61,010 nt of DNA. Origin: a virus. Its lineage: Duplodnaviria > Caudoviricetes. Position numbers and translations under genes: made by a program. Shown one piece after another: positions 37,772 to 53,110 of this stretch. How positions within the stretch are numbered: position 1 is the stretch's first letter; each line of letters begins with the position of its first letter. The DNA is taken from positions 1 to 61,010 of the IMG/VR virus record IMGVR_UViG_3300032111_000012; one strand, given 5' to 3'. A model generated the notes under the pieces. It was not told the DNA's origin and made no database searches. It saw nothing but the letters and a program-made list of their open reading frames with translations.

Positions 37772-37778
37772 CCCTCAA

Positions 37779-39323
37779 CTAAGCCACCTGCTTCCCGCCC
37801 AGTGCCTTCCCCATTGCCTTCTCAATCTCAACCTTGAAGGCATCACTTAAATCCTCAGCATCGCCCAGCCTAGCTGCCAGAACAGCATCCCGGATAATCC
37901 TCTCTCGCTCTCCTGGCTCCTCTTCATCCTCTCCCGCCCACCGCATCATCGTAGGAACGAAATCAACAAGGTAGCTGGCCGCTGCTTCCAGCGACATTAA
38001 GCGAGTTTCGACGGCCTTGGCGAATGCGTTAACCAGCTTCTCGATGACGGTAGCGATCTTCTCCTCATCCTTGGGTACGATCTCTTCCCAATCCAGCCAA
38101 GTGTTGTAGGTCTGGATGGTATTGCGCCCATTGGCCTTCTCCCACATTGCCAGCAGCATCCGGGCCATCATCAGGTATGACTCCTCGAACATCGACCGCT
38201 TCCGCTTGATCTTCCTGATCAGGGGAATCATCTGCTCAGACACGCTGGCCTTACTGCTACTGACTGCCGTGCCGAATACGAACTCAGGCGTGCCCGACAC
38301 ATCCACAATGCACCAGTAGATGAACTTCAACAAGACATCGGCCCCGCCCAAAGGAGAGGACACCGACAGGTACTCCACATCCTCATCGTCATGAACAAAG
38401 ATCACGTCCCGATTATCGAAAGAGATCTTGACCTCTTCCCCTGGGGCGATAGCATCAATGTCCACTCCGAAGTTACGGAGAATGAAGTCCTTGTAGTCCG
38501 ACACCTTGAACTTGACCTTGGGCGTGCTGTGCATCTTGCTGCCGGAAATCGCCTGGAGAAGGACATCATGATACGCCTTCATCAGCGGCTCAACCGGCTC
38601 CAGATCCGAACGGCCCCAGACCTCATTATCCTCAGCCTCATTCTTGAAATGGATGATCGGGATAAAGCCCCACTTGTTCGGCTCTTCGATGTTCTTCAGG
38701 CCTAAATCAGGCGGCAGATCACCCGCATATGTCTTGATGATCTTGTCCTTCTCGATCTTCTCAGTAATCGTGTACTTGTTCCTGTCATTCTCGCCCCAAG
38801 TACAGGTGTACTGGAGAAGATACGCCTGCACACGCCCTGTCTCTGGATCTGTCTCGATCCTCTTCACTCTCTCCGGCGGGATCGGAATCAGGTCAATACC
38901 GAACCCTTTTTCCTTGTTCTTATAGAGGACGTCATCCTCATCCCTGACCGCCAACCGGAAGAACTGGTCACCATCCCGAAAAGCGTTGCGATGTCCCCTC
39001 ACTAAGACACTGCTCCACCTGTCGAAATGCTCATCCAATACAGGCTGCGCTTCCCTGTCTGCCGACTTGACTGAAGGCACCCCCATAAACCCGACGCAAG
39101 TATCAATAACCGGGCGGGCGAAGTGCGCCCCCAGCTTGTAATCCTTGTGAATGTTCCGGTAGATCTTCCGGGCCAACTCATAATCCATCCGGTCTGTTGA
39201 ATTGAGGGCGTAAACATTGTTACTTGAGCCAATACTGACCCCGGTTTTAGCCACCAACTTTGATATTTCTCCAATGGCTCTGCTGGCTCTGCGAACCCAA
39301 TAGCCTACTGATCTGCGTTGCAT
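37779..39323 (-). CDS. Portal protein (SPP1 gp6-like)
   Basis: WGFIPIIHFKN...GRSDLE; follows TerL. Confidence 0.9.
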   Translation of the reverse strand: MQRRSVGYWVRRASRAIGEISKLVAKTGVSIGSSNNVYALNSTDRMDYELARKIYRNIHKDYKLGAHFARPVIDTCVGFMGVPSVKSADREAQPVLDEHFDRWSSVLVRGHRNAFRDGDQFFRLAVRDEDDVLYKNKEKGFGIDLIPIPPERVKRIETDPETGRVQAYLLQYTCTWGENDRNKYTITEKIEKDKIIKTYAGDLPPDLGLKNIEEPNKWGFIPIIHFKNEAEDNEVWGRSDLEPVEPLMKAYHDVLLQAISGSKMHSTPKVKFKVSDYKDFILRNFGVDIDAIAPGEEVKISFDNRDVIFVHDDEDVEYLSVSSPLGGADVLLKFIYWCIVDVSGTPEFVFGTAVSSSKASVSEQMIPLIRKIKRKRSMFEESYLMMARMLLAMWEKANGRNTIQTYNTWLDWEEIVPKDEEKIATVIEKLVNAFAKAVETRLMSLEAAASYLVDFVPTMMRWAGEDEEEPGERERIIRDAVLAARLGDAEDLSDAFKVEIEKAMGKALGGKQVA

Positions 39324-39352
39324 TCATGATCACACCCCTCACCCAACGGAAC

Positions 39353-39490
39353 TCAACGGAAGAATCGCTTGGCAGGATAGATCTGAAAAATGAAGACTTC
39401 CCCGATCTTGATGGTCAGCCCGTGCCAGGCAATGACCCCGATCACTAACGCTTTGACCACCCACTCTGTTAACTCTCGCCACTCCACCAT
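39353..39490 (-). CDS. Small membrane peptide (45 aa)
   Basis: MVEWRELTEWVVKALVIGVIAWHG...; fills the TerL-portal gap. Confidence 0.45.
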   Translation of the reverse strand: MVEWRELTEWVVKALVIGVIAWHGLTIKIGEVFIFQIYPAKRFFR

Positions 39491-39510
39491 ACTCCACCAT
39501 CCCTGGCCCA

Positions 39511-40872
39511 CTAATAAAACCTGACGCCCGACAGCACCCTGGCCGTCTGCTTAGTCACTCTCTCCACCGCAAGCAGGTTAACCACCAGATGCCGTAAAGC
39601 ATCCATCGAATGGTCAAACTTCTTGATCGGCTTCTCTGCCGGGTTGGTCTTGTCCCGGCCCTCCGGGTACCGGTACGAATTGAACTCCATAATGGTATTC
39701 CGGCACCTGCGCCTATCAACAAGAAGGCCAGGGCTGCCATCATCCCTGACCTTCAACACTCTACGCACCTGCTCCAAGCCATCTGTTACTTCGTGCGGCT
39801 TGGCCTTGGTCGGGATACCGACCAGGGCCAGATCCTTCCTCTCTCCCGGCCCCTCTGGATCAGCAAAAGCATCGGTGATCCTGCCGTATCCCCTCTCCTT
39901 GTGGTAAGCGGCCACAGCCTCAGCGTTCTCCTTCGATGTTCGGCCCGTCTCATAATACTCATCAATGATATGCACCCGATCCATCGGATCAATCTGCACC
40001 CAGAGACACACATAAGGATTCGTGAAGCCGAAGTCGAAGCAACAATACAAAGGCCAGTTGGGATTATACTCCAAGAAGTCAGTGTGCGACTCTTCCAAAA
40101 AGTCCCCATACACACGTCCGCTGAAGGTCTGGAACCTGGCCTCATACTCCTGGAGGAAGTATTCCCTGGAATACCTTGACCGGGCCTTCTCAATCTCTTT
40201 CTCAGGCGTGATCCCTGCATACTTGGTCGTGTAATGGATCACCGCAAACTCTGGATCACCCTGCAGAGCTGCTTGATAGACATCATCATGAAGCCAGTTC
40301 ATTCCCTTAGGTGTCCCGGTCATCCACCCGATACCACCCAAACGTCTGGCACGTGCCTCAAGGTTAATGTAAGACTCCCTCTTCAGCAATGCAGGCTCAT
40401 CCAGCCAAAACCAATGGATATTACCCGCCCGAAGGCTGTCGGGATCACTGGCGGACTTGAACTCGATCAGGCTGCCCCCTGGGAGATGTAGCTCCTTTTG
40501 GGTTTCCTTCCACGATAGCTTAAGCTGAGGCGGCAGCCACTTGAAGAACTCCCACATTGCCGTCTTAAGCAATGGGTAATCCCTTGCCACGATCCAGCCG
40601 TGGTTCGGCCACGGGATCCCAAACCTGGCACACCACGTTGGATCGGTTGCCATCCATATCGCTTCATTGGCTCCTGCCCCTGTTTTGCCAGAGCCGATTC
40701 CAGCCAAAGCCAGCCGGAACTTGGCACGCGATAAATGGAAATGATACTGGCCTGGGTTAGGGTTATATTCAATGCGATGGACGCTCCGGCCCGGCTTCCC
40801 CTGCCCCGCCCAAAATTGTAACGTTCCCGGTTTGACGTTGACCTTCCTGAACCTGACTAGCGGTGCAACCAT
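39511..40872 (-). CDS. terL: Terminase large subunit
   Basis: GIGSGKT, WLDE, TGTPKG, DFGFTNP, DHSMDALR. Confidence 0.95.
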   Translation of the reverse strand: MVAPLVRFRKVNVKPGTLQFWAGQGKPGRSVHRIEYNPNPGQYHFHLSRAKFRLALAGIGSGKTGAGANEAIWMATDPTWCARFGIPWPNHGWIVARDYPLLKTAMWEFFKWLPPQLKLSWKETQKELHLPGGSLIEFKSASDPDSLRAGNIHWFWLDEPALLKRESYINLEARARRLGGIGWMTGTPKGMNWLHDDVYQAALQGDPEFAVIHYTTKYAGITPEKEIEKARSRYSREYFLQEYEARFQTFSGRVYGDFLEESHTDFLEYNPNWPLYCCFDFGFTNPYVCLWVQIDPMDRVHIIDEYYETGRTSKENAEAVAAYHKERGYGRITDAFADPEGPGERKDLALVGIPTKAKPHEVTDGLEQVRRVLKVRDDGSPGLLVDRRRCRNTIMEFNSYRYPEGRDKTNPAEKPIKKFDHSMDALRHLVVNLLAVERVTKQTARVLSGVRFY

Positions 40873-41335
40873 CCTGCGGATGCCACCTCTCAATGACGAT
40901 ACGCTCAGACGGGTTGCCCTGGTCAGCCACCGGCAGGAATCCCAGAGACTGAATCACTGCCACCCAAGCACTCCTGGCCTGTACCCTGGCCTTCAATGCC
41001 CCCAGCTTGATGTTGGGGTGATTGTTGCTATTGATAAGGGCCGACAACTCCCGGATATCTTCGTCGTACCCCGCTGCGATCTCAGCAAGCAGAGTCTCCG
41101 GGCCTGCGCTCATCATCTCCTTCCCTTGCCTCTTGGCAACGGACTTGAGAATGTCGCGGATCTGCCTCTCCGAAAGACCATACGCTACAGCCAAATCCGG
41201 AATGGCATACCCTTTTGCCCGGAGGCGCTGGATCTCTCGGTCGCGTGCATCACGTTCATCCCGAGACATCCCAGGCACCGGCCCCCTTCTCCCCTGCCCC
41301 GCCTGCTGCTTACTGCTTTTGCCCACTCGAATCAC
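40769..41335 (-). CDS. terS: Terminase small subunit (HTH)
   Basis: N-terminal HTH (LAVAYGLSERQIRD); directly upstream of TerL. Confidence 0.7.
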   Translation of the reverse strand: MIRVGKSSKQQAGQGRRGPVPGMSRDERDARDREIQRLRAKGYAIPDLAVAYGLSERQIRDILKSVAKRQGKEMMSAGPETLLAEIAAGYDEDIRELSALINSNNHPNIKLGALKARVQARSAWVAVIQSLGFLPVADQGNPSERIVIERWHPQDGCTASQVQEGQRQTGNVTILGGAGEAGPERPSH

Positions 41336-41374
41336 CTTTACCTCTTGCTTATCGACTCCCCCAGTTAGAGAAGT

Positions 41375-42139
41375 CTAATTCTCAACACTCTCTGGCGGCA
41401 GCGAACGCAAAGCCACACGTTCCAAGGCTTCTGCTAGGTTCTTGTCCGGCAAATCATCAGCCTCACTGACAAGCCAATCTCTTACCGTCTGCACTTGCTT
41501 CGGGAACAGGATCACCATCTCTTTGCCCGTCTCCCGATCCAGAATGATGAAATACCCTCTCTGGATGGAACCGTTACCCTCGATCAGAGCCGCCCGGAGC
41601 AGCTTGTTGACCTTCTCCTGAAGCCGCATCTCCTGGGCCAGTTCCTTCTTCTCCTGCTCGGCCTGGGCGGTCTCGCCAGCAACACTCTTCACCGCCGCAT
41701 CGATCCGCTTATCCAAGCCCCCGATCTCGGCCACCAACGCTTCCCGATCCCTAGCCTGCATAATCTCCGCCACATTCTCCTTCAACCGATCCAGATCCCA
41801 ATCACCCTTCAATGAATTCATCAACAGGGTAAGTTCGATCATCTGGTGTTTCGGGAGATCCTGCTGGATGACCACTGCCGGGATCTCTGTCAACGAAGCG
41901 TCCTTGGCGGCCATCACCCGATGCTCACCGTCAATACACAGAAAACGGCTCCCCTGCTCACGCAAGAGAACCGCTGACAGCATCCCTTTCTTCTTGATCT
42001 GCTCCACCAGCCGCCTATATCTGGCGGCAGGCATCTTGTTAGCATTCCACTGATTGTAATCGATCAAGTCCACCGGCACCATCTGGATCTTCACCGGTAC
42101 CGGCGACGAGGCCGCTGCTTGCCCCTGCTTGCCCATCAT
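41375..42139 (-). CDS. ParB/Srx N-terminal domain protein
   Basis: WNANKM, IDGEHRV, MNSLKG. Confidence 0.85.
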   Translation of the reverse strand: MMGKQGQAAASSPVPVKIQMVPVDLIDYNQWNANKMPAARYRRLVEQIKKKGMLSAVLLREQGSRFLCIDGEHRVMAAKDASLTEIPAVVIQQDLPKHQMIELTLLMNSLKGDWDLDRLKENVAEIMQARDREALVAEIGGLDKRIDAAVKSVAGETAQAEQEKKELAQEMRLQEKVNKLLRAALIEGNGSIQRGYFIILDRETGKEMVILFPKQVQTVRDWLVSEADDLPDKNLAEALERVALRSLPPESVEN

Positions 42140-43544
42140 ATCCCCCCGGACTATATGTTGCCTCATCCCTGGTGTAGTCGTCCTTCCAGCCGCCTTTCAG
42201 CAAGGCCTGCCTCGTCTTAACCGGATGCCCCTGCGGTGGATCACTCAAGCCGTGACCATAAAGCCTTTTGACCTCCCTTTCCAGGTCAACCTTGGTAAAC
42301 GGCCCGATTTTCTCATAGAGGTACTTGGCGACCTCCAAGATCTTATGCTCCCGATCCGGGCTTGGCCTGCACCTGAGCCAATTCCGCTGCACCAAGCCCT
42401 CAGTCTTGGCCCGCCAGATCCCGGCGATCACCGGGAGATCAAACCTCTCCGACACATACTGCCGCAGCCTGCGCCCGACAACCCTGGCCTCATCCCGATG
42501 CTCCATAAAATGCTTCAGGTACGCAAGGCACTGGTCGTTATCCTCGAAATGCCACTCATAATCCGGCCCGACCATAAAAGGAAACACGAGTTCCTTCCGA
42601 CACAAGAACGGCATCTCCAACATCATACAGTCCAAATACGACCGTCCGAACGCATCCCACCGAGAATGGCTTACCAAGACGTGGCAGCGACTGAGATCCC
42701 GAAGGTACTGCTCCCGCGACACCCCGCCCTTATTTACGGCATAAGGCCGCCCCCCAACCCTGTACCCCCTGCCTGACGTATCCCAGATCCAGACCTCGAA
42801 CTCATACCCCAGCATCCAAAGCCGGTCGTAAACCTCGAACGTTTCTCGGACACCCTTCTGTTCAATCAGCTTATGGTTGAGGGCGATGGTAAACTTTTCA
42901 TTCTTCTCAATGGGGAACGCATATTCCTCAACCATAATGGGCTGTCCGGTCGGCATGCTCTTTCTCTGAATCTCCCCCAAAGCCTTCTGATTCAAAATGG
43001 TGGAGAAGATAGCAAGGGAATGTTCCATAATCCACGGACACTCCCACAAGATCTCATCACTGGCGAAGAACCCGATAGCTTGTCCCAACACCGTGGTCGG
43101 GATAAAATCATTCTTGTGTCTCTCTTCCCTCAGCCCATTGAAACATGTCGTAACCACCGGAGCCAACCCCTGGCCCCCGGAGACATCTGGATACCCGTGC
43201 CGCAACAAAGCCTTCCACGCTGGAACCAACTCCGGGACAAAGAACCATGCACAATCGACATCGACCGACCGCAAGCAAGGCCGAAACCGGTCCAAGCCCT
43301 CGAAATCAAGCTGCCAATTGTTGAGGTTCCGGTTGGTGCCATAATACCTTTGCGGCACCACCGTCACATTCGGCATCTCCTGGAGAACCTTCAAAGCTCT
43401 CTCCAGCCTGGGCCACTCAATCGGCATTCCAAAATAAAACCGCCAATCCGGGAAAGCCCGCATCAGGCTCACAGGAATAGTAAACCCGGAATCCCCTGCG
43501 AGGTTCCGGGTGTTCGAAAGCATCGGGTGAACGTAAATTCTCAT
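42039..43544 (-). CDS. GT-B fold glycosyltransferase (GT4-like)
   Basis: NHKLIEQKG, SREQYLRDL, SHSRWDAFGRSYLDCM, ERFD. Confidence 0.85.
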   Translation of the reverse strand: MRIYVHPMLSNTRNLAGDSGFTIPVSLMRAFPDWRFYFGMPIEWPRLERALKVLQEMPNVTVVPQRYYGTNRNLNNWQLDFEGLDRFRPCLRSVDVDCAWFFVPELVPAWKALLRHGYPDVSGGQGLAPVVTTCFNGLREERHKNDFIPTTVLGQAIGFFASDEILWECPWIMEHSLAIFSTILNQKALGEIQRKSMPTGQPIMVEEYAFPIEKNEKFTIALNHKLIEQKGVRETFEVYDRLWMLGYEFEVWIWDTSGRGYRVGGRPYAVNKGGVSREQYLRDLSRCHVLVSHSRWDAFGRSYLDCMMLEMPFLCRKELVFPFMVGPDYEWHFEDNDQCLAYLKHFMEHRDEARVVGRRLRQYVSERFDLPVIAGIWRAKTEGLVQRNWLRCRPSPDREHKILEVAKYLYEKIGPFTKVDLEREVKRLYGHGLSDPPQGHPVKTRQALLKGGWKDDYTRDEATYSPGGYDGQAGASSGLVAGTGEDPDGAGGLDRLQSVEC

Positions 43545-43568
43545 CTGGGACTCTCACCCCACAGTAAT

Positions 43569-43612
43569 ATTATACCACTACAAAAACCCCGTTTTGTGCA
43601 GTCTTTGTGCAG
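43569..43612 (-). promoter_or_regulatory. Late promoter: extended -10 plus 2x CTGCACAAA direct repeat (candidate RinA/ArpU-type activator site)
   Basis: TGGTATAAT at 43577-43569; repeats 43593-43601 and 43604-43612 (11-bp period) replace a -35. Confidence 0.7.
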
Positions 43613-43615
43613 GTT

Positions 43616-43906
43616 TTACTGTTTGCTGCCAGAGATCCTGGTTACATCTTTACCTAACAATCGGTCGAGGGCAGCTCGAAGCTTTTCAAGCGGCTCAAGC
43701 CATTCTCCGAAACGCCCACCTGCAAGTAAATCCGACCACGGCGCAAGATCACCGTTTAGGTGTAGCCCGTAGACACCCTGAGAATTGGCAATCAACTCGT
43801 CAACACTGGTGAGGACTTCTTGTGCCGCCACCACCACTCGTTCCAGAACACAATACCCACTCCCGCTCTCATTTTGGGTTACGGGTTTCTGTTTGTACTT
43901 TTCCAT
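43616..43906 (-). CDS. Hypothetical phage protein
   Basis: SQGVYGLHLNGDLAPWSDL; SD present. Confidence 0.7.
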   Translation of the reverse strand: MEKYKQKPVTQNESGSGYCVLERVVVAAQEVLTSVDELIANSQGVYGLHLNGDLAPWSDLLAGGRFGEWLEPLEKLRAALDRLLGKDVTRISGSKQ

Positions 43907-43934
43907 CAGGGTGCCCCTCCTTAAAAGTTAATCA

Positions 43935-44056
43935 GGCTGGGGGCCGGATTCGAACCGGCTTCCTGCAGGTGCGCCTCTGTGATTGTGCCTGCAGGCGGAG
44001 CTTCCATGTGCGCTTGTTCCCGCACCTCCCGCGTGTCCCACCACGCCGCCCCAGCC
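43935..44056 (-). ncRNA. tRNA-like RNA with non-canonical anticodon and long variable arms
   Basis: Acceptor GCTGGGG/CCCCAGC, D-arm GCGT-GGTGGGAC-ACGC, T-arm GCCGG-TTCGAAT-CCGGC. Confidence 0.7.
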
Positions 44057-44086
44057 CCATACTTACTATCACGCTACCGTTCAGTC

Positions 44087-44380
44087 CTATCTCAAACTTT
44101 TCTTTGTAGGGCACCACCTGCGATTGGGATGTCTAACCACATTGGTCATACCATCAGTCCGCGATCCCTTCTTCCCCATGCGACGCAGTACTTGCTCGTG
44201 CTTTGCATCGGCCATTTTGGTGCTAATTGCGTTTGTAACTTGCGCCCACAGCTTTCGTGTCTCACCTATTGGCAACTGGCAGGCAACTTCATCCGGCGGC
44301 AACGTATTTCTTAGTGCCTGCAATTCTTCCAGGGTAAGCAAGAGCAGCGCCTCATATTTGGTTAACGCCATGTTTATCAT
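44087..44380 (-). CDS. Hypothetical protein
   Basis: 97 aa with SD. Confidence 0.55.
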   Translation of the reverse strand: MINMALTKYEALLLLTLEELQALRNTLPPDEVACQLPIGETRKLWAQVTNAISTKMADAKHEQVLRRMGKKGSRTDGMTNVVRHPNRRWCPTKKSLR

Positions 44381-44414
44381 TCCCTATCCGTACCTCCTCG
44401 ATGGTCATATAAAT

Positions 44415-44489
44415 TGGTGGGGGCGGTTTAGGGCCTGCACTTAGCCCAAGCGCCCATATGGTGCACGTGCCGCACGCGCCTCCGCCCCC
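44415..44489 (-). ncRNA. 75-nt degenerate tRNA-like element ending ACCA
   Basis: GGGGGCGG...CCGCCCCC-ACCA with internal hairpins. Confidence 0.45.
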
Positions 44490-44497
44490 ACATTTAC

Positions 44498-44591
44498 TGC
44501 TGCGCCGCCGATAAGCCCCGCCGGCGGGTCCAGCGGGGCCACCTCGCCGACATTCTAGACAGCCCGCCCTTCCATCCCGCGCGGCGCAGCA
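44498..44591 (-). ncRNA. Structured element closed by 11-bp stem
   Basis: TGCTGCGCCGC/GCGGCGCAGCA plus internal GCCCCGC/GCGGGGC. Confidence 0.35.
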
Positions 44592-44613
44592 TTATTACTT
44601 TTAACCCACTTGC

Positions 44614-45102
44614 TCACCCTTGCTCACCCGTCCAGTAATTGACCCGGCTAGGGAACACGTCTACGTGGCAGCTCATTGCGCCAGCGAGACCACGTCCGCC
44701 GTTCCCGCTAATTTTCGCCCATGCCGGGCGTAGTACGGTTTCAAGCTTATAGCCCCTTTTGGCCAGGGTTTTCTCCGAAACGTAAGGGTTAACCCATTCC
44801 TCTGTTCCGTCCGGGCGCTTTACCAGGTACCTGGAGCCGTACCGGGTGAAAACCAGCCTGGCATTTGTAGGCGTGCCGTCGAGGTAAACCAGTTCGTCAA
44901 ACTCGGCTACTCCCCCGTTCCGGAGGATTTCGACCTTAGTCTCCAGCAGTTGCTGGCTAAGCCCTCCGGCCCATGTGCTAACGAAACAATCGCTCAACTC
45001 TACGTCGCCATTGACCACCCGGTTGAACCGGTCGTCGTTCCGCGCCTTTAGCTCCTGGAGTTCCTGTTCCAGGGCCACCAATAGCTCCTGGCCATACTTC
45101 AT
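44614..45102 (-). CDS. Hypothetical protein
   Basis: 162 aa, SD GAGGAGAGG, first gene after operator pair 45172/45204. Confidence 0.8.
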   Translation of the reverse strand: MKYGQELLVALEQELQELKARNDDRFNRVVNGDVELSDCFVSTWAGGLSQQLLETKVEILRNGGVAEFDELVYLDGTPTNARLVFTRYGSRYLVKRPDGTEEWVNPYVSEKTLAKRGYKLETVLRPAWAKISGNGGRGLAGAMSCHVDVFPSRVNYWTGEQG

Positions 45103-45171
45103 AGCTACCTCTCCTCTCCGTCCGTATTGCCTTTAAATATCGCTTCCGGTTTCATCCCTACATCTACGTTA

Positions 45172-45217
45172 TCACCATATGGTGAATTAGTAAAGCGTTA
45201 AATTCACCTATTGGTGA
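45172..45217. promoter_or_regulatory. Operator pair (45172-45185, 45204-45217) with leftward promoter
   Basis: Minus strand TTTACT-AATTCACCATATGGTGA-TAACGT. Confidence 0.75.
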
Positions 45218-45439
45218 TTATTCTCCAACTGCTGCGCTACGGTTCGATGCAGGCAGCGTTGCCTGGATTCCCTGCTGCTCTCTCTCCCATTTGATCAATC
45301 TCTGGAACATCCCCAGAAACAAATCCCGAATATCAGCGAATGGCAAGCACGGGCAGATCCGAACCTCATCCGTGGGTGGGAAAGGCTGCCGCCACTCTTT
45401 GCCATTAACCTTGATCTCCCTGGCCTCTGTAGCCCGCAT
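45218..45439 (-). CDS. Hypothetical protein
   Basis: ATG 2 nt after galE stop. Confidence 0.5.
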   Translation of the reverse strand: MRATEAREIKVNGKEWRQPFPPTDEVRICPCLPFADIRDLFLGMFQRLIKWEREQQGIQATLPASNRSAAVGE

Positions 45440-45441
45440 TG

Positions 45442-46440
45442 TCAGAATTCCCCGTACCCCTCCAGGTGGCGCACATGCCATTCCCAGGCCGTGCGGATGA
45501 TGGTCTCCAGGTCCCCGTAGCGCGGCGCCCAGCCCAGTTGCCGCTGGATCTTATGCGAACCGGCGACCAGCGCGGTCGGATCGCCCTCTCTCCGAAAACC
45601 TGTTTCTACCGGTATGTCGCAGCCGGTCACTCTCCGGGCCGTATCGATTACCTCCCGTACCGAGTGCCCCCGCTCGTTGCCCAGGTTATATGCCCCCGAA
45701 GGATGACCGCCATCCAGGGCACGCAGGGCCAGAACATGCGCCTCGGCCAGATCCGAGACGTGAACGTAATCCCGGATACAGGTTCCGTCCGGCGTGGGGT
45801 AGTCCGTACCAAAAATGGTGATCCCCGGTTGCAATCCCAAGGCTGCCTGCAACACCAGGGGGATGAGATGGGTTTCCGGCCTGTGGTCCTCGCCGAGATC
45901 CCCTGCCGGATCGGCACCGGCGGCATTGAAATACCGGAGCGCGATGTACTTCAGGCCGTAAGCGGCGCCATACCAGCGCAGCGCCTCTTCAAAGGCCAGC
46001 TTGGTCGCCCCGTATGGGTTGGTGGGGGTAAGGGGATGGTCTTCCTCGATAGGTACCCGCACCGGCTCGCCGTAAACTGCGGCGGTCGAAGAAAAGATAA
46101 AATACGGGACACCCGCTTCCTGCACCGCTTCCAGCAGCGCCAGCCCCTTTACCACGTTGTTCCGGTAATAAAGCGCCGGGTCAGCCACCGACTCTCCCAC
46201 CAGGCTCAACGCCGCAAAGTGGAGTACTGCCCGGACGCCGCAGGAGCGCAGTAGCCCGCCTACCAGCTCCCGATCCGCAATGTCTCCCCAGACAAACTCT
46301 GCCCCCTCAAGCACCTGCGCTACTCCCCGGTGCCCCCGGGAGAGGTTGTCCAGCACCGTCACCTTATAACCCGCCTGAAGGAGTTCTTTCACAGTGTGAC
46401 TGCCGATATAGCCCGCCCCGCCGGTAACAAAAACGTGCAT
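45442..46440 (-). CDS. galE: UDP-glucose 4-epimerase
   Basis: GGAGYIG, HFAA, SSTAAVYG, YGATK, LRYFN, DGTCIRDYVHV all intact. Confidence 0.97.
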   Translation of the reverse strand: MHVFVTGGAGYIGSHTVKELLQAGYKVTVLDNLSRGHRGVAQVLEGAEFVWGDIADRELVGGLLRSCGVRAVLHFAALSLVGESVADPALYYRNNVVKGLALLEAVQEAGVPYFIFSSTAAVYGEPVRVPIEEDHPLTPTNPYGATKLAFEEALRWYGAAYGLKYIALRYFNAAGADPAGDLGEDHRPETHLIPLVLQAALGLQPGITIFGTDYPTPDGTCIRDYVHVSDLAEAHVLALRALDGGHPSGAYNLGNERGHSVREVIDTARRVTGCDIPVETGFRREGDPTALVAGSHKIQRQLGWAPRYGDLETIIRTAWEWHVRHLEGYGEF

Positions 46441-46454
46441 AAAAAGCCTCCTCT

Positions 46455-46680
46455 ACGCCTGCAGGTTTTTGCTTTTTAGAAAAGAAAAAGGCCAAAACCA
46501 CAAACCCCGCCAAATCCACCAGTACATCCACCGCCCGGCCTGTGCGACCAGAAACAGATGCCTGGTGCCACTCATCCAGGGCCCACGAGAACCAGCAGCA
46601 TCGTGCAAGAGAGTCAGAAGTTCAATCCTTGGCCCCAGGTTCCGTCTCCGAGCTAATAAGGCACACAGGATGGAATGTTG
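46455..46680 (-). pseudogene. VanZ-like membrane protein fragment
   Basis: Frame reading ALDEWHQASVSGRTGRAVDVLVDLAG; lacks N-terminus, frameshifted. Confidence 0.7.
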
Positions 46681-46682
46681 GC

Positions 46683-46877
46683 CGATAAGAGAGCGTTCGG
46701 GACCCACAGGTAAAGGTGACTTTGCTCACGAGCAATTGATTGAACCGGTAAGGCCATAATCTCATCAAAAGTCATTGTTTGATATCGATAAAGCCGTTGA
46801 TGCTCCGGGGCGACCTTCCCAGTTCAATTGTTAAACTGCCACGAAGGATCAGCCAGAATCGTCGAATACTTTTTCAC
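46683..46877 (-). pseudogene. MT-A70-family adenine methyltransferase N-terminal remnant
   Basis: KKYSTILADPSWQFNN*TGKVAPEHQRLYRYQTMTFDEIMALPV...HLYLWVPNALL; DPPW altered to DPSW, TGA at 46826-46824, truncated. Confidence 0.8.
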
Positions 46878-47036
46878 CCACAGAATCCAAGAAAATCACG
46901 ACCTCACCCCCAGACTAAAGCGCAAGGCATCTGGAAACCAGATGCCCGATCGCTACCCCACCCGCAAACCAGGCCACATAGCTCCAGATCCTACGCGCTT
47001 TCTGCCTTCTCCGTCTTTCCGCCTGGATCTCCCTTT

Positions 47037-47381
47037 CTAACGCACAAAACACTTCGCCCGATCCCCCTTCCGGTACTGCGGCCCCTTCCACATCGGGGCC
47101 ACAGCCCTCTCTTCCTTATCCAGCTTCATCCCATATCTCCGCAACATCTTTGGTGTCCTGGGATCACCGTGATCTGGCATCCGTACAACATCACCCCAGC
47201 TTGTCCTGACCCTTACCGAAGGGAACGGATATTCCGTATCCGGCTCGTGCCATCCCAGCACCTCACAATCCTGGGGAAGACCTAATATTTCCTTGACCGC
47301 CGACACCAGAGGATCATCATCGCTTAATAACCCTGACGATCTCAGGATCACTCTTTGGATCTCCGACCACAGGCTTAACAA
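47037..47381 (-). CDS. Hypothetical protein (start uncertain)
   Basis: ORF in operon direction. Confidence 0.45.
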   Translation of the reverse strand: MLSLWSEIQRVILRSSGLLSDDDPLVSAVKEILGLPQDCEVLGWHEPDTEYPFPSVRVRTSWGDVVRMPDHGDPRTPKMLRRYGMKLDKEERAVAPMWKGPQYRKGDRAKCFVR

Positions 47382-47526
47382 TAACCTGGCCCTCAGCTAA
47401 TGCTATTTTTACCATCCCATTTTTAGCTATGTACTGAGCCGCTGGCCCGTTAAATAAAACCCCGGACGCACATAGCGTCATCTGCATCTTTGGCGCATCC
47501 TTCGACTCGTCCCTGAACCATTCCAC
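47317..47526 (-). CDS. Hypothetical protein
   Basis: 69 aa with SD AGGGGG. Confidence 0.6.
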   Translation of the reverse strand: MEWFRDESKDAPKMQMTLCASGVLFNGPAAQYIAKNGMVKIALAEGQVIVKPVVGDPKSDPEIVRVIKR

Positions 47527-47604
47527 GCTTATTCCCCCTGAATAAAACTTGCTGAGACGAAGCTGCGAACCCTATCCTGCTTGCACCTTTCTGACTTTCT
47601 CTCT

Positions 47605-48234
47605 CTAATGTGTGACCTGCTCCCGGCATAGATCATCCTTAACCAGCTGTACCCGCAAACGGCCCAACATTGCAGATAGAGTGACCACCATCTCCCAGAT
47701 GATCTCCGGGGTGATCTTTCTGACCTTAAGGAGATCCTCGCCCGACATCTGCAACAATTCCCCAAACGTGCGGATATCCCAAGCCATCAATGGCCTGCGG
47801 CAGCTTCTAGGGATCTCCCACACCAAACCGATTTCAAAGCTGTCAATGCGGAGATCTTTGAGATTCCCGCACTCAACATAAGGAATAAGCTCGACCCGGA
47901 GGCGATCCCACACGTCCCCGATTCCGACAAGCTCCCCTTTCGGGGCCACTATCTCCGGCTTTTCAACGTATTTATGCTTCTTTACCCTGGCATTAAAGAA
48001 ATCAACAATCCAAGATCTCGGTGCCCTGGTGCCCATCATCACGTAAGCGAACTCCTGGGCGCACTCCCGAAGGTACTCCTGGAACTCGCGGTGCCAGAAT
48101 AGCTGATCCGTCCGAAACGCCCGTATCATCTGTCGCTTCTTCTTCTCATAGCGTCTCTTTCTCTCAGCCAGATCCAAACCCAACACCCGCACCCCCTTCC
48201 TATTAACCACCAAAAGCTCTAATCTCTTCGTCAT
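47605..48234 (-). CDS. Protein with C-terminal RNA polymerase alpha-CTD-like domain
   Basis: PRSCRRPLMAWDIRTFGELLQMSGEDLLKVRKITPEIIWEM resembles the RpoA CTD pattern. Confidence 0.7.
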   Translation of the reverse strand: MTKRLELLVVNRKGVRVLGLDLAERKRRYEKKKRQMIRAFRTDQLFWHREFQEYLRECAQEFAYVMMGTRAPRSWIVDFFNARVKKHKYVEKPEIVAPKGELVGIGDVWDRLRVELIPYVECGNLKDLRIDSFEIGLVWEIPRSCRRPLMAWDIRTFGELLQMSGEDLLKVRKITPEIIWEMVVTLSAMLGRLRVQLVKDDLCREQVTH

Positions 48235-49023
48235 TCAAGATCCCGAACATCTTGCGCTCTCCTTCTCCCGAATCGTCCTCCCGCCATAGTAGGAAACACC
48301 GTATTCCAGATCCCCCTCAAACCGGCCCACATAAACCGGCTTGCCCGGATAAACATATACAGCCTGGACTCCCGAGAAGAACGCCCCGCAATCGATCCCG
48401 ACCTTGTTCCCTTCCTGCCACACCCTGGCCCGACCATGGATCAATGGTGTAGGCGTATGCCCAAATACGACTGTCTTATCCGTGATTACCTCTGAATTGA
48501 TGAATGCCTCCCGAATGTGCAAGAGTATTCCGGGCCTCTGCTCGGCCATTACCACCGGCACTCCCGGCTCCACCCCTGCGTGACAATAGATGTGCTTCTC
48601 CGTTTCCCGGTAAAGAGGCAGGCTCTCAATCCACCGTAGCACCTCTTTGGGGATATACCTGTTGACGGACTCCGGTTCCCAGACCTTATTCCAGGGGCAA
48701 CCGTAGCTCATCAATGTCGCGCCTCCGCCGTTGTAGATCCACAACTCAAACCGATCTAAATCCCCCAAAGCCGCCATCAAAAGGTCGTCATCATGATTGC
48801 CCCGCAATGCCTGAACTCCACTGATCTTGGATAGCTCCATCACCAGTTCGTAGACCCCCTTGGTGTTCGGGCCGCGATCCCCATAATCACCAAGGAAGGT
48901 CAACCAATCAACCCCCGGTCTAAACCGGGCCTTCCTCAACCCCGCGACCAGGTTGTCCAAATCCCCGTGAATGTCTGTCATTGCCAGTTCCCTGCGATCC
49001 ATCTCTCCCGATACTCCTCTCAT
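48235..49023 (-). CDS. Calcineurin-like Ser/Thr protein phosphatase (lambda NinI/PrpA-like)
   Basis: DIHG, GDYGDRG, LRGNHD, NGG, HAG, GHTP, IDCG. Confidence 0.92.
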   Translation of the reverse strand: MRGVSGEMDRRELAMTDIHGDLDNLVAGLRKARFRPGVDWLTFLGDYGDRGPNTKGVYELVMELSKISGVQALRGNHDDDLLMAALGDLDRFELWIYNGGGATLMSYGCPWNKVWEPESVNRYIPKEVLRWIESLPLYRETEKHIYCHAGVEPGVPVVMAEQRPGILLHIREAFINSEVITDKTVVFGHTPTPLIHGRARVWQEGNKVGIDCGAFFSGVQAVYVYPGKPVYVGRFEGDLEYGVSYYGGRTIREKESARCSGS

Positions 49024-49502
49024 TTAACCGATGGCGGTATCTTTGAGTTACCTAAATCCACCGCCCCGTCCGCAAAAGCCATCACAGCATCTCCCCGCCT
49101 CAAAGCAACAATGGCTTCACCGATGGCCGTGCAAGCCTGTTCTTCGGCATCCTCAAACAAAGACCCAATGGTACGCCGCGCCTCGTCCGACATCCCATTT
49201 GTGACCTGCTTGACGATCTCCCACATCGGAGCGATATGCAGGTGCAACAACTCGTGAACGATTATGTACTCCATATCCATCTCGCCCCGGCGACTCTCGC
49301 CCACCTCATTGGGATCAACCGGCCTCAGCCTTACTTTGCGGCTAGGCGTCCGGTACCAAATGTCCCCATTGGATTCCCGATTATCCTGATTCCGTGGGCG
49401 AACCATATCAATAACAATCTGCCATCCCCCCAGCCTGAGAAGGGACTGGTAGAACATTGTCACCCCAATAGCCTGCTCCCTGGTAAGGTTTCTCGTATCC
49501 AT
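49020..49502 (-). CDS. Zincin-like metallopeptidase
   Basis: IIVHELLH with downstream EE. Confidence 0.65.
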   Translation of the reverse strand: MDTRNLTREQAIGVTMFYQSLLRLGGWQIVIDMVRPRNQDNRESNGDIWYRTPSRKVRLRPVDPNEVGESRRGEMDMEYIIVHELLHLHIAPMWEIVKQVTNGMSDEARRTIGSLFEDAEEQACTAIGEAIVALRRGDAVMAFADGAVDLGNSKIPPSVK

Positions 49503-52843: not shown

Positions 52844-53110
52844 CCTGCCCAACCTCCTCTGAGAATGCTGCCCGCTGTTCCTGGCTAAGCAAATGCTTGT
52901 ACTTTTTGAAGAACGACCTGCGCCCAATTCGGTGTGCTTCCTTATGATGCTTCCCACACACCGGTAATTTATTGATTGCCACATCCTTTAGATCTGGTCG
53001 CGCCCCCCTGGTATGAATCCAATGATGCTCATCATCCGCAGGCTGGCCGCATATCGCACAATACTGGTCGATGTAGCCATCCAACCACTCCTGGGGAAGC
53101 TCCTGCGGGT
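52836..53110 (-). CDS. HNH-like nuclease (DUF968/Ref-like); start uncertain
   Basis: CAICG...HH...PVCGKHHKEAH..G. Confidence 0.7.

What the first reader, a model, noticed from the sequence alone, without database searches (positions are those of the whole stretch)
41375..46440. Packaging-coupled glycosylation module: GT-B and ParB-like genes lead the late operon, and a captured galE may feed them
Seen: the activator-type late promoter (TGGTATAAT + 2x CTGCACAAA, 43569-43612) lies upstream of the glycosyltransferase, not of terS. GT, ParB-like, TerS and TerL follow with overlaps or short gaps, and an intact galE lies 1.9 kb upstream. Established: ParB-like domains accompany phage DNA-modification genes near terminases; phage GTs glycosylate either modified bases or virion proteins; GalE makes UDP-Gal/UDP-GalNAc. 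I found no hydroxymethylase, TET/JBP dioxygenase or DNA polymerase, so the usual 5hmC acceptor route is missing. Inference: either a galactosyl/GalNAc DNA modification on an unusual acceptor added at packaging, or virion glycosylation.
Basis: partly seen in the sequence, partly recalled or inferred. Interest (0 to 1): 0.75.

Follow-up and report, generated by a model that had tools for sequence, protein, structure and literature searches.

The report
Phage glycosyltransferase–ParB module before terminase
A prophage starts its DNA-packaging operon with a sugar-transferring enzyme and a ParB-like partner, a pair that recurs beside terminase genes in many phages and probably decorates phage DNA, though the target is unproven.

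Summary
All genes lie on the minus strand in this order: galE, three or four small ORFs, a promoter-like site (TGGTATAAT plus two exact CTGCACAAA copies), then a 501-aa GT-B glycosyltransferase, a ParB-like gene, TerS-like, TerL and portal.

The new result is that GT plus ParB is a conserved module.
- A ParB-like gene is the immediate neighbour of the GT in 40 of 48 IMG/VR loci that hold distant members of this GT family. TerL follows within 1.5 kb in 34 of 49.
- The same GT-ParB-terminase order occurs in cultured Arthrobacter, Agrobacterium and Stenotrophomonas phages.
- Sugar-nucleotide enzymes recur beside it.

galE is a true recent gain. Sibling phages about 97% identical, in three other metagenomes, carry the GT-to-portal block but lack galE. 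At that spot they keep 707 more bases where this prophage has only a decayed MT-A70 methylase remnant.

No TET/JBP or thymidylate-synthase homologue was found in the whole host genome, so the known 5hm-pyrimidine acceptor route is missing.

Best reading (about 0.4): ParB-assisted glycosylation of phage DNA around packaging. Virion or packaging-protein glycosylation remains a live rival. The target is unproven.

This scan has already noted similar ParB-GT-terminase cassettes on other DNA (48 notes). This is a new variant of a known kind.

The parts
45442..46440 (-). galE, UDP-glucose 4-epimerase, intact (332 aa), with a strong AGGAGG ribosome-binding site
   Evidence: Pfam Epimerase 2.1e-62. 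TIGR01179 scores 431 bits against a cut-off of 262. GGAGYIG and YGATK motifs are visible in the translation. RBS seen.
45447..46592 (.). Insertion/replacement block carrying galE. It is absent from sibling phages, which have 148 other letters here.
   Evidence: read laying joint 45446->46593 in X3, X4 and X5, one contig each. The X4 contig is 49,454 nt and the X5 contig 14,986 nt, and both bridge the site.
46686..46868 (-). Remnant of an MT-A70-type DNA adenine methyltransferase gene. It keeps the DPSW and HLYLWVPN motifs, has an in-frame stop, and lacks its 3' part.
   Evidence: Pfam MT-A70 E 0.004 on the 40-aa ORF at 46653-46775. tblastn with the MT-A70 of locus L018 gives E 0.003 with an in-frame stop. 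Siblings hold 707 extra letters exactly at 46685/46686.
44614..45102 (-). 162-aa ORF of unknown function, kept by the siblings
   Evidence: phrog_5855 (unknown function) 1.4e-6. No Pfam or NCBIfam match. Covered by sibling contigs over 44517-45446.
43616..43906 (-). 96-aa ORF of unknown function that ends just upstream of the promoter-like site, in the variable region
   Evidence: No family match. Sibling contigs break or carry insertions at 43664-44517.
43569..43612 (-). Promoter-like site: two exact CTGCACAAA repeats 11 bp apart (43604-43612 and 43593-43601), an extended -10 TGGTATAAT (43569-43577), and no -35
   Evidence: Sequence read. The repeats are the only exact copies in the window. 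The two-hexamer scan did not list this site.
42039..43544 (-). GT-B (GT4-like) glycosyltransferase, 501 aa. It has D297-x7-D305 in place of the E-x7-E motif, a basic winged-helix-like C-terminal domain (about residues 390-466), and an acidic 35-residue tail that overlaps the ParB start.
41375..42166 (-). ParB/Srx-fold protein (253-263 aa; likely start at 42136 or 42082). N-terminal ParB_N domain with GEHR in place of GERR, followed by a helical C-terminal half.
   Evidence: ParB_N 2.5e-9. Matches an HMM of the GT-adjacent ParB-like proteins at 1.3e-23. Model pLDDT 77; best PDB matches are CTP-bound ParB, Noc and KorB.
40769..41335 (-). Small terminase candidate (188 aa) with an N-terminal HTH
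   Evidence: It sits directly before TerL and overlaps it. Weak Mor/HTH_23 hits and phrog_836 1.1e-7. A small HTH protein occupies the same position in 36 related loci.
39511..40893 (-). Large terminase (likely ATG at 40872)
   Evidence: Terminase_6N 1.9e-13, Terminase_6C 7e-5. phrog_2 1.3e-43. Start codon read.
37779..39323 (-). Portal protein
   Evidence: SPP1_portal 2.2e-16. phrog_64 4.7e-42.

Best explanation
The GT and the ParB-like protein form a conserved two-gene phage module. Here it is probably transcribed together with terS, terL and the portal gene from a promoter-like site just upstream of the GT.

Most likely the GT moves a hexose or N-acetylhexosamine from a UDP-sugar onto the phage's own DNA after replication, around the time of packaging. 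Its fold and catalytic motif are shown; its donor and acceptor are inferred. The ParB-fold partner lacks a clear DNA-binding domain in most family members. It is inferred to act as activator or loader, as shown in print for ParB-dependent phage thymine dioxygenases. The basic winged-helix-like C-terminal domain of the GT would provide DNA contact (inferred).

No 5-hydroxymethylpyrimidine route is detectable, so one of two things must be true: the acceptor is unusual, or an unrecognised base-activating enzyme hides among the unannotated ORFs.

galE is a recent, dispensable gain that could supply UDP-Gal or UDP-GalNAc during infection. It is not part of the core module.
For: 1. The GT fold and chemistry are plausible.
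- The model matches GT4 retaining GT-B enzymes (best Foldseek E 1.6e-11).
- D297 and D305 are invariant in the 9 close homologues. They align with the E-x7-E glutamates that are invariant in distant members.
- 24 of 37 family members match Pfam Glycos_transf_1.

2. The pairing with ParB is conserved.
- A ParB-like gene is the immediate upstream gene in 40 of 48 IMG/VR loci that have at least 500 nt of upstream DNA. One lies somewhere in the locus in 45 of 48.
- Pfam alone names ParB_N in 15 of 27 upstream neighbours.
- The window's ParB matches the HMM of those proteins at 1.3e-23.
- The gene order differs between lineages. It is ParB-GT in most IMG/VR loci and GT-ParB in this window, DanielleIgnace, Kitkat, JP1 and DLP3. 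Chance adjacency would not survive such rearrangement.
- DanielleIgnace gp97 is a full-length family member: hhalign probability 100, E 2.5e-43, 461 columns.

3. The module is linked to packaging genes.
- TerL lies within 1.5 kb downstream in 34 of 49 loci.
- Sibling phages share one collinear block over 36000-43664.

4. The published precedent points to DNA.
- ParB-like proteins lacking a DNA-binding domain activate phage thymine dioxygenases on dsDNA, in vivo and in vitro (PMC13229309, abstract and passages).
- Phage DNA GTs that depend on a partner epimerase are described (10.1101/2023.12.21.572611, passages and section 9).
- The idea that ParB directs DNA-modification enzymes during packaging is attributed to Aravind and coworkers in PMC8256090 (passages).
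- The best PDB matches of this ParB-like model are M. xanthus and C. crescentus ParB. The paper names the same two as closest to its activators.

5. DNA methyltransferase genes sit in or beside the module.
- They occur in L018, L022, L029, L068 and DanielleIgnace.
- This window has an MT-A70 remnant.

6. The C-terminal ~85 residues are basic in most members.
- 14 of the 20 members computed, the window's included, have a pI of about 8.8 or higher.
- The Atlas model's nearest structures for residues 390-468 include winged-helix regulators (all under that tool's bar).

7. DLP3 carries a distant member of the GT family in the same GT-small ORF-ParB-TerL arrangement.
- Its DNA resisted 15 of 15 restriction enzymes (PMC7326821, passages).
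Against: - No acceptor-making enzyme was found.
  - Tet_JBP and Thymidylat_synt have no match in the whole genome.
  - Neither family was hit among 62 neighbours scanned at E<=1e-3 or among 120 scanned at E<=1e-5.
- No glycosylation of unmodified DNA is known (my own knowledge).
- DLP3's restriction resistance may be due to its own thymidylate-synthase homologue and DNA polymerase. This prophage has neither.
- The winged-helix reading is weak. None of 29 C-terminal pieces matches any HTH Pfam family, and only 1 of 37 whole proteins gave a weak HTH_24 hit.
- The window's ParB has NANK where most relatives have NPR, so nucleotide binding is uncertain.
- The acceptor-side N-terminal domain of the GT is poorly modelled (pLDDT under 50 for residues 1-23 and 66-147). 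Nothing can be read from it.
- The IMG/VR contexts come from a distant subgroup (about 20% identity to the window GT).
  - Many of those loci are near-duplicates: 28 of the 50 ParB-like proteins remain after removing those at least 75% identical.
  - No genomic context could be fetched for the window's 8 close homologues.
- No GT-ParB fusion was seen among longer proteins (weak evidence).
Confidence: 0.4

Rival explanations
1. The GT glycosylates a protein: a virion protein (capsid, portal, tail) or a packaging protein (TerS, or the ParB-like protein itself). The ParB-like protein is an unrelated packaging accessory, or is the substrate or an adaptor.
For: - The module sits at the head of the structural and packaging operon.
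- The best PDB fold matches include a protein O-GlcNAc transferase (SdgB) as well as small-molecule and glycan GT4 enzymes. The fold therefore does not point to DNA.
- Virion glycosylation by phage GTs is known in actinobacteriophages (my own knowledge, not checked here). DanielleIgnace carries a further GT inside its structural genes.
- No DNA acceptor route is detectable.
Against: - The tight and rearrangement-tolerant pairing with a ParB-fold protein, and the nearby DNA methylases, are not explained by this reading.
- In the DLP3 paper, none of the 5 places that mention 'glycosyltransferase' lies in the section on virion structural proteins. An epimerase-like WcaG and a different ParB-like protein (gp2) were detected in the virion (PMC7326821, passages).
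- The structural-operon GT of DanielleIgnace (gp21) is a separate gene from the ParB-linked gp97.
Confidence: 0.25
2. The GT, with galE, modifies a host cell-envelope polymer such as teichoic acid, S-layer or polysaccharide. This would be lysogenic conversion or superinfection exclusion. The position next to terminase is incidental.
For: - GT4 enzymes commonly act on envelope glycans and lipid-linked acceptors (PglA, PimA and others).
- galE lies in a variable, moron-like region.
- The authors of the DLP3 paper proposed LPS modification for gp102 (PMC7326821, passage).
Against: - The GT has no signal peptide or membrane segment evident in the translation (by eye only, not tested with a predictor).
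- It heads the conserved late block rather than sitting in the variable region.
- It overlaps the ParB gene and lies close to terS.
- The same position beside ParB and terminase holds in hosts with quite different envelopes: Arthrobacter, Agrobacterium, Stenotrophomonas and a Bacillota-type host.
Confidence: 0.1
3. The pair acts on a small molecule or nucleotide. ParB/Srx-fold proteins include kinases such as SerK, SbnI and sulfiredoxin. The ParB-like protein could phosphorylate or activate a metabolite that the GT then glycosylates, for example to block a host defence signal.
For: - The ParB-like protein gives weak matches to the serine kinase SerK (NCBIfam E 1.2e-4) and to SbnI and sulfiredoxin structures.
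- Top GT fold matches include small-molecule GT4 enzymes: BshA, MshA, SenB and tetrahydrobiopterin GT.
- One family member weakly matches the Pfam family 'GT4 in conflict systems' (E 0.008).
Against: - The best ParB matches are the CTP-binding DNA clamps (E about 1e-8), not the kinases (E about 1e-4).
- The constant linkage to terminase genes has no obvious reason under this reading.
- All of these family matches are below their cut-offs.
Confidence: 0.1

Closest known systems
Post-replicative phage DNA hypermodification clusters: C5-MT or T + 5mYOX (TET/JBP-type dioxygenase) + GT, with or without a partner sugar epimerase (subclass II). Sources: Burke et al. 2021, PMC8256090; bioRxiv 10.1101/2023.12.21.572611.
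   Same: - A phage GT sits next to a sugar-nucleotide epimerase, DNA methylase genes, a ParB-like gene and terminase.
- GT-B folds occur among those enzymes.
- Dependence of the GT on a partner epimerase was shown there.
   Different: - No 5mYOX and no ThyS homologue is present here or in the related loci scanned.
- This GT family gave no match to T4-type or TET-associated GT families in Pfam.
- galE here is a recent and dispensable insertion.
ParB-dependent phage thymine dioxygenases (5mYOX176/ParB176; PNAS 2026, PMC13229309)
   Same: - A phage ParB-fold protein is encoded beside a DNA-modifying-type enzyme.
- It has an N-terminal nucleotide-binding domain and a C-terminal helical part, and most family members have no obvious DNA-binding domain.
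- Its closest solved structures are M. xanthus and C. crescentus ParB.
   Different: - The partner is a glycosyltransferase, not a dioxygenase.
- Activation has not been shown here.
- The window protein has NANK and GEHR where canonical ParB has box I and GERR (the canonical motifs are recalled).
GT-ParB-terminase cassettes of cultured phages: Arthrobacter phages DanielleIgnace, Kitkat, BeatusComedenti and KellEzio; Agrobacterium phage JP1; Stenotrophomonas phages DLP3 and Summit
   Same: - They share the same GT family.
  - hhalign probability 100 for DanielleIgnace gp97.
  - tblastn with gp97 finds the others.
  - The best viral fold matches are the GTs of BeatusComedenti and Kitkat.
- They share the same order: GT, 0-2 small ORFs, ParB-like. 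A small ORF and the terminase follow in JP1 and DLP3. In DanielleIgnace and Kitkat the pair lies near the right end of the linear genome record.
- DLP3 adds PIG-L, WcaG and WecE sugar-tailoring genes.
   Different: - Sequence identity to the window GT is only about 15-25%.
- DLP3 has a thymidylate-synthase homologue and its own DNA polymerase.
- None of these cassettes has been studied experimentally, as far as my three literature searches show.
T4 alpha- and beta-glucosyltransferases (GT-B fold, acting on 5hmC in DNA)
   Same: GT-B fold with a UDP-sugar donor. They work on phage DNA after replication (my own knowledge).
   Different: - No sequence-family match.
- The acceptor 5hmC needs a dCMP hydroxymethylase and a phage polymerase, and both are absent here.
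- T4 GTs have no ParB partner and no C-terminal extra domain (my own knowledge).

Membership tests
GT-B fold, GT4-like retaining glycosyltransferases (Pfam Glycos_transf_1 clan) | Two Rossmann-like domains with the donor site in the C-terminal one | tested here: met
   The AlphaFold model (pLDDT 62, best in the C-terminal domain) matches GT4 structures over 400-430 columns, with E 1.6e-11 to 1e-8.
GT-B fold, GT4-like retaining glycosyltransferases (Pfam Glycos_transf_1 clan) | E-x7-E motif and a basic residue that binds the donor phosphate | tested here: met
   The motif is present as D297-x7-D305, invariant in the 9 close homologues. It aligns to invariant E-x7-E in distant members. K225 and K230 are invariant in the close set. 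The roles of these residues are recalled, not tested.
GT-B fold, GT4-like retaining glycosyltransferases (Pfam Glycos_transf_1 clan) | Score above the Pfam gathering cut-off | tested here: not met
   17.9 bits against a cut-off of 26.4 for the window protein. 24 of 37 family members match at E<=0.01.
Phage DNA sugar-hypermodification cluster (5mYOX/ThyS + GT) | An enzyme that makes 5-hydroxymethylpyrimidine (TET/JBP-type 5mYOX or a thymidylate-synthase homologue) | tested here: not met
   No Tet_JBP match over the cut-off and no Thymidylat_synt match in the whole genome. No match in 62 and 120 neighbour proteins of related loci. Divergent 5mYOX that Pfam misses cannot be excluded; the authors of PMC13229309 say such proteins exist.
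Phage DNA sugar-hypermodification cluster (5mYOX/ThyS + GT) | A glycosylated base in virion DNA | not testable with these tools
   This needs nucleoside LC-MS or single-molecule kinetics.
Phage DNA sugar-hypermodification cluster (5mYOX/ThyS + GT) | A GT with a partner sugar-nucleotide enzyme, and a ParB-like gene or terminase in the neighbourhood | tested here: met
   - galE lies 1.9 kb upstream.
- An epimerase, a UDP-glucose dehydrogenase, aminotransferases or a nucleotidyltransferase lie next to relatives in L020, L022, L029 and L072 and in DLP3.
- ParB and TerL adjacency was counted.
ParB/Srx superfamily, CTP-dependent ParB clamps | ParB_N fold with the GxxR (GERR) arginine motif | tested here: met
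   ParB_N 2.5e-9, 37.5 bits against a cut-off of 26.3. G70 is invariant and R73 nearly invariant in 26 GT-linked ParB-like proteins; the window has GEHR. The best PDB matches are CTP- or CDP-bound ParB.
ParB/Srx superfamily, CTP-dependent ParB clamps | Box I (NPR-type) nucleotide-binding motif | tested here: not met
   The window protein has NANK where most GT-linked relatives have NPR.
ParB/Srx superfamily, CTP-dependent ParB clamps | A central HTH domain that binds parS, and CTP binding and hydrolysis | tested here: inconclusive
   Helices follow the N-terminal domain in the model, but no HTH family matched. Most relatives are only 175-195 aa, too short for a full DNA-binding domain. Nucleotide binding cannot be tested here.
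UDP-glucose 4-epimerase GalE | Equivalog-level family score, NAD-binding GxxGxxG and catalytic YxxxK | tested here: met
   TIGR01179 scores 431 bits against a cut-off of 262. GGAGYIG and YGATK are present in the translation. Preference for UDP-Glc or UDP-GlcNAc was not tested.
Winged-helix DNA-binding domain (C-terminus of the GT) | Three helices plus a beta-hairpin wing, and a match to a wHTH family | tested here: inconclusive
   - The topology H396-413, H418-429, H441-450, E453-455, E463-466 fits.
- The Atlas structure neighbours include Penicillinase_R and HTH_33-type proteins at TM 0.44-0.61, all under the tool's bar.
- None of 29 C-terminal pieces matches an HTH Pfam family.

The most novel reading that the evidence does not exclude
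The GT-ParB pair glycosylates DNA that carries no hydroxymethylpyrimidine. This would be a new acceptor chemistry, for example a canonical or methylated base, or the DNA ends made by terminase. It would be loaded or switched on by a ParB-fold partner as the genome is packaged. It would be a previously unrecognised and widespread class of phage DNA modification that needs only two genes.
Probability: 0.2. Interest if true: 0.9.

Novelty: new variant of a known kind. Interest (0 to 1): 0.6.

Why it matters
Phage DNA glycosylation is known only on 5-hydroxymethylated pyrimidines. Here a glycosyltransferase travels with a ParB-fold partner and the terminase across phages of at least four bacterial phyla or classes. 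In this prophage the whole host genome shows no known way to make the usual acceptor.

If the target is DNA, this is new nucleic-acid chemistry and a new job for ParB-fold proteins. It would also be a likely anti-restriction or anti-CRISPR device, and a tool for labelling DNA. If the target is a protein, it is an unrecognised step in head assembly or packaging.

The case is experimentally accessible:
- Cultured, non-pathogen-host phages carry the module (Arthrobacter phages DanielleIgnace and Kitkat).
- This prophage is a minimal version with natural sibling variants that lack galE.

The scan has met similar cassettes many times, so the value of this instance lies in three things: the defined GT family, the quantified linkage to ParB and TerL, and the galE natural experiment.

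Tried and rejected
- **Complex prediction, GT (1-470, alignment A1) with ParB (11-263).** No verdict: score 0.00 against a mark of 0.32. This is neither for nor against binding.
- **The look-up of sequencing runs.** No RNA holder was listed, so nothing can be said on expression or on where transcription starts.
- **Context of the window's 8 close GT homologues.**
  - The search for related loci with A1 found none in viral, genome or metagenome contigs.
  - The genome search found only the window's own copy among the 3 family genomes, and only weak generic GT1 matches in 401 genomes of the phylum.
- **The search for related loci with A2 and A3.** Both failed for lack of a conserved stretch. P0019 alone found nothing. 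The narrower alignment A4 worked.
- **megablast of 41000-46600 against phage records.** No match.
- **tblastn of P0001 and P0017 against phage records.** One weak hit and none, respectively.
- **Mycobacteriophage GodPhather.** Its ParB-like gp73 is the best tblastn hit of the window's ParB. The gene before it, gp72, is not a member of the GT family (hhalign probability 0.5).
- **PDB sequence search with the GT.** Nothing below E 0.2.
- **HTH families in 29 C-terminal pieces.** None.
- **GT-ParB fusions among longer proteins.** 3 long GT hits, none with ParB_N.
- **Neighbours of the closest galE homologues in other genomes.** No window phage gene lies beside them. They are not the same prophage.
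- **The 188-aa protein as a Mor-type late activator rather than TerS.** I rejected this as the main reading because of its position overlapping TerL and the equivalent small HTH ORF in 36 related loci. It is not excluded.
- **The terminator-like hairpins inside the ParB and GT genes.** I treated these as chance: 12 were found against 8.2 expected.

Full report
**1. What is there**

The window is a prophage with nearly all genes on the minus strand.
- Immunity and replication genes lie at 53-61 kb: HTH repressors, a DnaD-like initiator and a DnaB helicase.
- Next come RusA, a 3D-domain peptidase, an AAA_28 kinase-like protein and a NinI-like phosphatase at 48-52 kb.
- After the region under study come portal, head, tail and lysis genes down to about 13 kb.

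In the finding's span the genes are as follows.

| Coordinates | Gene | Main evidence |
|---|---|---|
| 45442-46440 | galE | Pfam Epimerase 2.1e-62; TIGR01179 431 bits, cut-off 262 |
| 45218-45439, 44614-45102, 44087-44380, 43616-43906 | small ORFs without informative matches | |
| 42039-43544 | glycosyltransferase, 501 aa | |
| 41375-42166 | ParB-like protein | ParB_N 2.5e-9 |
| 40769-41335 | 188-aa HTH protein in the TerS position | |
| 39511-40893 | TerL | |
| 37779-39323 | portal | |

The intergenic 71 nt before the GT read, on the minus strand, CTGCACAAA-GA-CTGCACAAA, then 15 nt, TGGTATAAT, 25 nt and the ATG. The two 9-mers are the only exact copies in 61 kb. Near-copies occur at the chance rate (15 against 15.0 expected).

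The genes are tightly packed:
- The GT overlaps the ParB start by 44-128 nt.
- 39 nt separate ParB and TerS.
- TerS overlaps TerL.

That the site is an activator-dependent late promoter remains an inference.

**2. The glycosyltransferase**

By sequence it barely touches Pfam Glycos_transf_1 (17.9 bits, cut-off 26.4), and it has no PDB relative below E 0.2.

The word-indexed search found only 8 relatives at 45-57% identity. A profile search of 1.84 billion representatives found 150 at E<=1e-10. Most are 440-500 aa, and many match over the full length.

The AlphaFold model has mean pLDDT 62. It is good in the C-terminal Rossmann domain and poor for residues 1-23 and 66-147. It matches GT4-type GT-B enzymes such as a mannosyltransferase, PglA, SenB, BshA, MshA, PimA and SdgB at E 1.6e-11 to 1e-8.

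The catalytic E-x7-E motif appears as D297-x7-D305. It is invariant among the close homologues and aligns with invariant glutamates in the distant ones.

After the GT-B core comes an extra domain of about 80 residues (390-466).
- Its topology is helix-helix-helix-hairpin.
- It is basic here (pI 9.3) and in most relatives.
- The nearest Atlas structures include winged-helix regulators, but all lie under that tool's bar.
- None of 29 such pieces matches an HTH family in Pfam.
- I call it winged-helix-like. DNA binding is not shown.

The acidic tail of 35 residues is unique to the window protein and overlaps the ParB start.

**3. The pair is a conserved module**

tblastn with a distant family member hit Arthrobacter phage DanielleIgnace gp97. 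This is a full-length member (hhalign probability 100, E 2.5e-43, 461 columns). It is followed at once by gp98 'ParB-like nuclease', and then by a methyltransferase at the genome end. gp98 is homologous to the window's ParB-like protein (28% identity over 119 aa, E 6e-5).

An alignment of 16 distant members retrieved 62 IMG/VR loci.

Pfam scans of a de-duplicated subset of the flanking ORFs:

| Neighbour | Family | Count |
|---|---|---|
| upstream (27 scanned) | ParB_N | 15 |
| downstream (35 scanned) | TerL | 13 |
| downstream | small HTH or Sf6-terminase-like proteins | 4 |
| downstream | NAD-dependent sugar epimerases | 2 |
| downstream | UDP-glucose dehydrogenase | 1 |
| downstream | second GT1 | 2 |
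| downstream | MT-A70 | 1 |
| downstream | AAA_33 kinase | 1 |

An HMM iterated on the upstream neighbours gave fuller counts.
- A ParB-like gene is the immediate upstream gene in 40 of 48 loci that have at least 500 nt upstream. One lies somewhere in the locus in 45 of 48.
- The window's ParB matches that HMM at 1.3e-23.
- TerL lies within 1.5 kb downstream on the same strand in 34 of 49 loci that have at least 1.8 kb downstream.

Caveats on these counts:
- Many loci are near-duplicates. 28 of the 50 ParB-like proteins remain after removing those at least 75% identical.
- The loci come from a subgroup only about 20% identical to the window GT.
- No context could be fetched for the window's own close subgroup.

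Cultured phages show the window's own gene order:
- Agrobacterium phage JP1: GT, two small ORFs, ParB-like, small ORF, terminase.
- Arthrobacter phage Kitkat: gp93 GT, gp94, gp95 ParB-like. Its relatives BeatusComedenti and KellEzio also carry the GT; their gene order was not inspected.
- Stenotrophomonas phage DLP3: PIG-L, WcaG, WecE, methyltransferase, two small ORFs, gp102 GT, small ORF, gp104 ParBc, small ORF, TerL.

The best matches of the GT model among predicted viral structures are the GTs of BeatusComedenti and Kitkat, over the full length. The pair survives a swap in gene order (ParB-GT against GT-ParB), which argues for a functional link. No fused form was found (weak evidence).

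**4. The ParB-like protein**

The model (pLDDT 77) has a confident ParB_N domain, then helices, a long helix and a small, poorly modelled C-terminal part. Its best PDB matches are CTP- or CDP-bound ParB of M. xanthus, C. crescentus and B. subtilis, then Noc and KorB. Sulfiredoxin and the serine kinases match much more weakly.

In 26 GT-linked relatives the GxxR glycine is invariant and the arginine nearly so. Most relatives have NPR in box I, whereas the window protein has NANK. Most are only 175-195 aa, too short for a full parS-binding domain.

This is the architecture described for the ParB-like activators of phage thymine dioxygenases. [quoted passage not shown]

**5. The missing acceptor**

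- Six-frame searches of the whole 2.49-Mb genome (95.8% complete) found no Tet_JBP match over the cut-off (best E 0.18) and no Thymidylat_synt match.
- Neither family appeared among 62 neighbours (E<=1e-3) or 120 neighbours (E<=1e-5) in the related loci.
- The prophage has no DNA polymerase among the ORFs scanned.
- Several ORFs stay unannotated (for example 52295-52984, 57402-58115 and 58610-59680). The authors of PMC13229309 note that many phage 5mYOX escape the Pfam model. A hidden hydroxylase therefore cannot be excluded.

**6. galE**

Laying contigs of four other metagenomes on 36000-52000 showed a sibling phage about 97% identical, for example 228 differences over 7.7 kb on a 49,454-nt contig. 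It is collinear over 36000-43664, which covers portal, TerL, TerS, ParB, GT and the promoter-like site.

- In three of three runs with bridging contigs (X3, X4, X5), 45447-46592 is replaced by 148 other letters. That span is galE plus 152 nt of its 5' flank.
- At 46685/46686 the siblings hold 707 extra letters.
  - That point is the 3' edge of a decayed MT-A70 gene in the window: DPSW and HLYLWVPN motifs, an in-frame stop, and the rest missing.
- One sibling also has 2,160 extra letters at 43664-43667, and all differ around 43.8-44.5 kb.

So 43.66-47.3 kb is a variable region, and the conserved late block starts just upstream of the promoter-like site.

The phage GalE is 82, 78 and 77% identical to GalE of three genomes from other families of the same order. 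It is only 68-69% identical to the GalE of its own host, genus and family. None of the window's phage genes lies next to those closest homologues.

It is also dispensable for the module. Whether it feeds the GT is open. The recurrence of epimerases and other sugar-nucleotide enzymes beside relatives of this GT (L020, L022, L029, L072, DLP3) makes this plausible, and epimerase-dependent phage DNA GTs are documented (10.1101/2023.12.21.572611, passages).

**7. Mechanism and rivals**

*Shown:*
- the fold and motif of the GT;
- conserved linkage of GT, ParB and terminase;
- the ParB architecture;
- the gain of galE;
- no detectable 5hm-pyrimidine route.

*Inferred:*
- co-transcription from the promoter-like site;
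- the UDP-sugar donor;
- DNA as the acceptor;
- ParB as activator or loader;
- timing at packaging.

I put DNA glycosylation at about 0.4. The reasons are the ParB precedent, the nearby DNA methylases, the basic extra domain and the resistance of DLP3 DNA to 15 of 15 restriction enzymes (PMC7326821, passages). That last point is weakened because DLP3 has a ThyS homologue and its own polymerase.

The rivals are protein glycosylation of virion or packaging proteins (0.25), envelope modification (0.1) and a small-molecule role (0.1). The rest is unassigned.

**8. Comparison with what is known, and novelty**

The closest described systems are the 5mYOX/ThyS-based phage DNA hypermodification clusters and the ParB-dependent thymine dioxygenases. 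This module shares their GT, ParB, epimerase, methylase and terminase neighbourhood but fails their defining feature, a base-hydroxymethylating enzyme.

- The GT survey paper notes in bulk that GTs lie near ParB-like, terminase and epimerase genes.
- It also notes that about 65% of GT contigs lack 5mYOX or ThyS, and regards these as less obviously DNA-directed (section 9).
- The idea that ParB directs modification enzymes during packaging is credited to Aravind and coworkers in PMC8256090 (passage).
- My three full-text searches found no paper that studies a GT-ParB pair without a dioxygenase. Supplements of the bioRxiv papers were closed and could hold relevant lists.

Earlier notes of this scan describe similar ParB-GT-terminase cassettes on other DNA: 48 notes in at least 47 genomes. 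None matches this GT by sequence. They reach the same open conclusion.

I therefore class this as a new variant of a known kind. It is of moderate to high interest because the module is widespread, unstudied and testable in cultured phages.

Noticed in passing
window 46686-46868 (minus strand), with decayed sequence down to about 46441: Pseudogene of an MT-A70-type DNA adenine methyltransferase with DPSW and HLYLWVPN motifs, an in-frame stop and a missing 3' part. Sibling phages in three other metagenomes have 707 more letters exactly at its 3' edge.
   Followed up: partly
window 43664-47321: Hypervariable region between sibling phages, just upstream of the late block. Differences include a 2,160-letter insertion at 43664/43667 in one sibling, a skipped 44051-44517, the galE replacement, and 1,090 extra letters at 47321/47324 in two siblings.
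   Followed up: partly
window about 46465-46474 and 43606-43615 (minus strand): The 10-mer AAAACCTGCA occurs both in the 5' flank of galE, about 25 nt before its ATG, and across the distal CTGCACAAA repeat of the promoter-like site. This may be chance (about 0.1 expected) or a shared half-site.
   Followed up: no
window 33680-37771 (minus strand): A 1,363-aa protein. Residues 172-505 match SPP1 gp7-type minor head / head morphogenesis families (phrog_1657, 8e-78). The remaining ~850 C-terminal residues match nothing. It may be a large head-internal or ejected protein.
   Followed up: no
window 49502-50113 and 48235-49023 (minus strand): An AAA_28 / NadR-like or thymidylate-kinase-like P-loop protein (Pfam 3.6e-19) lies next to a NinI-like metallophosphatase. 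A P-loop kinase near a DNA-modification candidate could matter, since kinases act in thymidine hypermodification. This was not examined.
   Followed up: no
window 1-12500: Beyond the lysis genes there is cargo: a tyrosine integrase (1-1023), a DUF2201 metallopeptidase/VWA protein with an AAA ATPase (2203-5035), a TnpB/Cas12f-like gene (6302-7693), a HicB-like antitoxin (10416-10958) and an RRXRR protein (11439-12488).
   Followed up: no
G000 contig C6, about 85605-85841 (locus L013), and genomes G446 and G417: Truncated galE fragments occur in the host genome (N-terminal 40 aa and C-terminal 49 aa pieces) and in two genomes of another family (residues about 121-331 and 138-331, 78-80% identical to the phage GalE). 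galE pieces seem to be mobile or decaying in this order.
   Followed up: partly
locus L029 (IMG/VR) 5407-12431: The richest relative of the module. Its gene order is ParB-like, GT, UDP-glucose dehydrogenase, GT2, DegT aminotransferase, GT2, DegT aminotransferase. This suggests that some members attach a tailored amino-sugar oligosaccharide.
   Followed up: partly
locus L072 (IMG/VR) 9-12371: Here the module sits with anaerobic ribonucleotide reductase, dUTPase, a DUF1599 'nucleotide modification associated' domain, two tandem ParB-like genes, an AAA_33 kinase and a sugar-phosphate nucleotidyltransferase, all before TerL.
   Followed up: no
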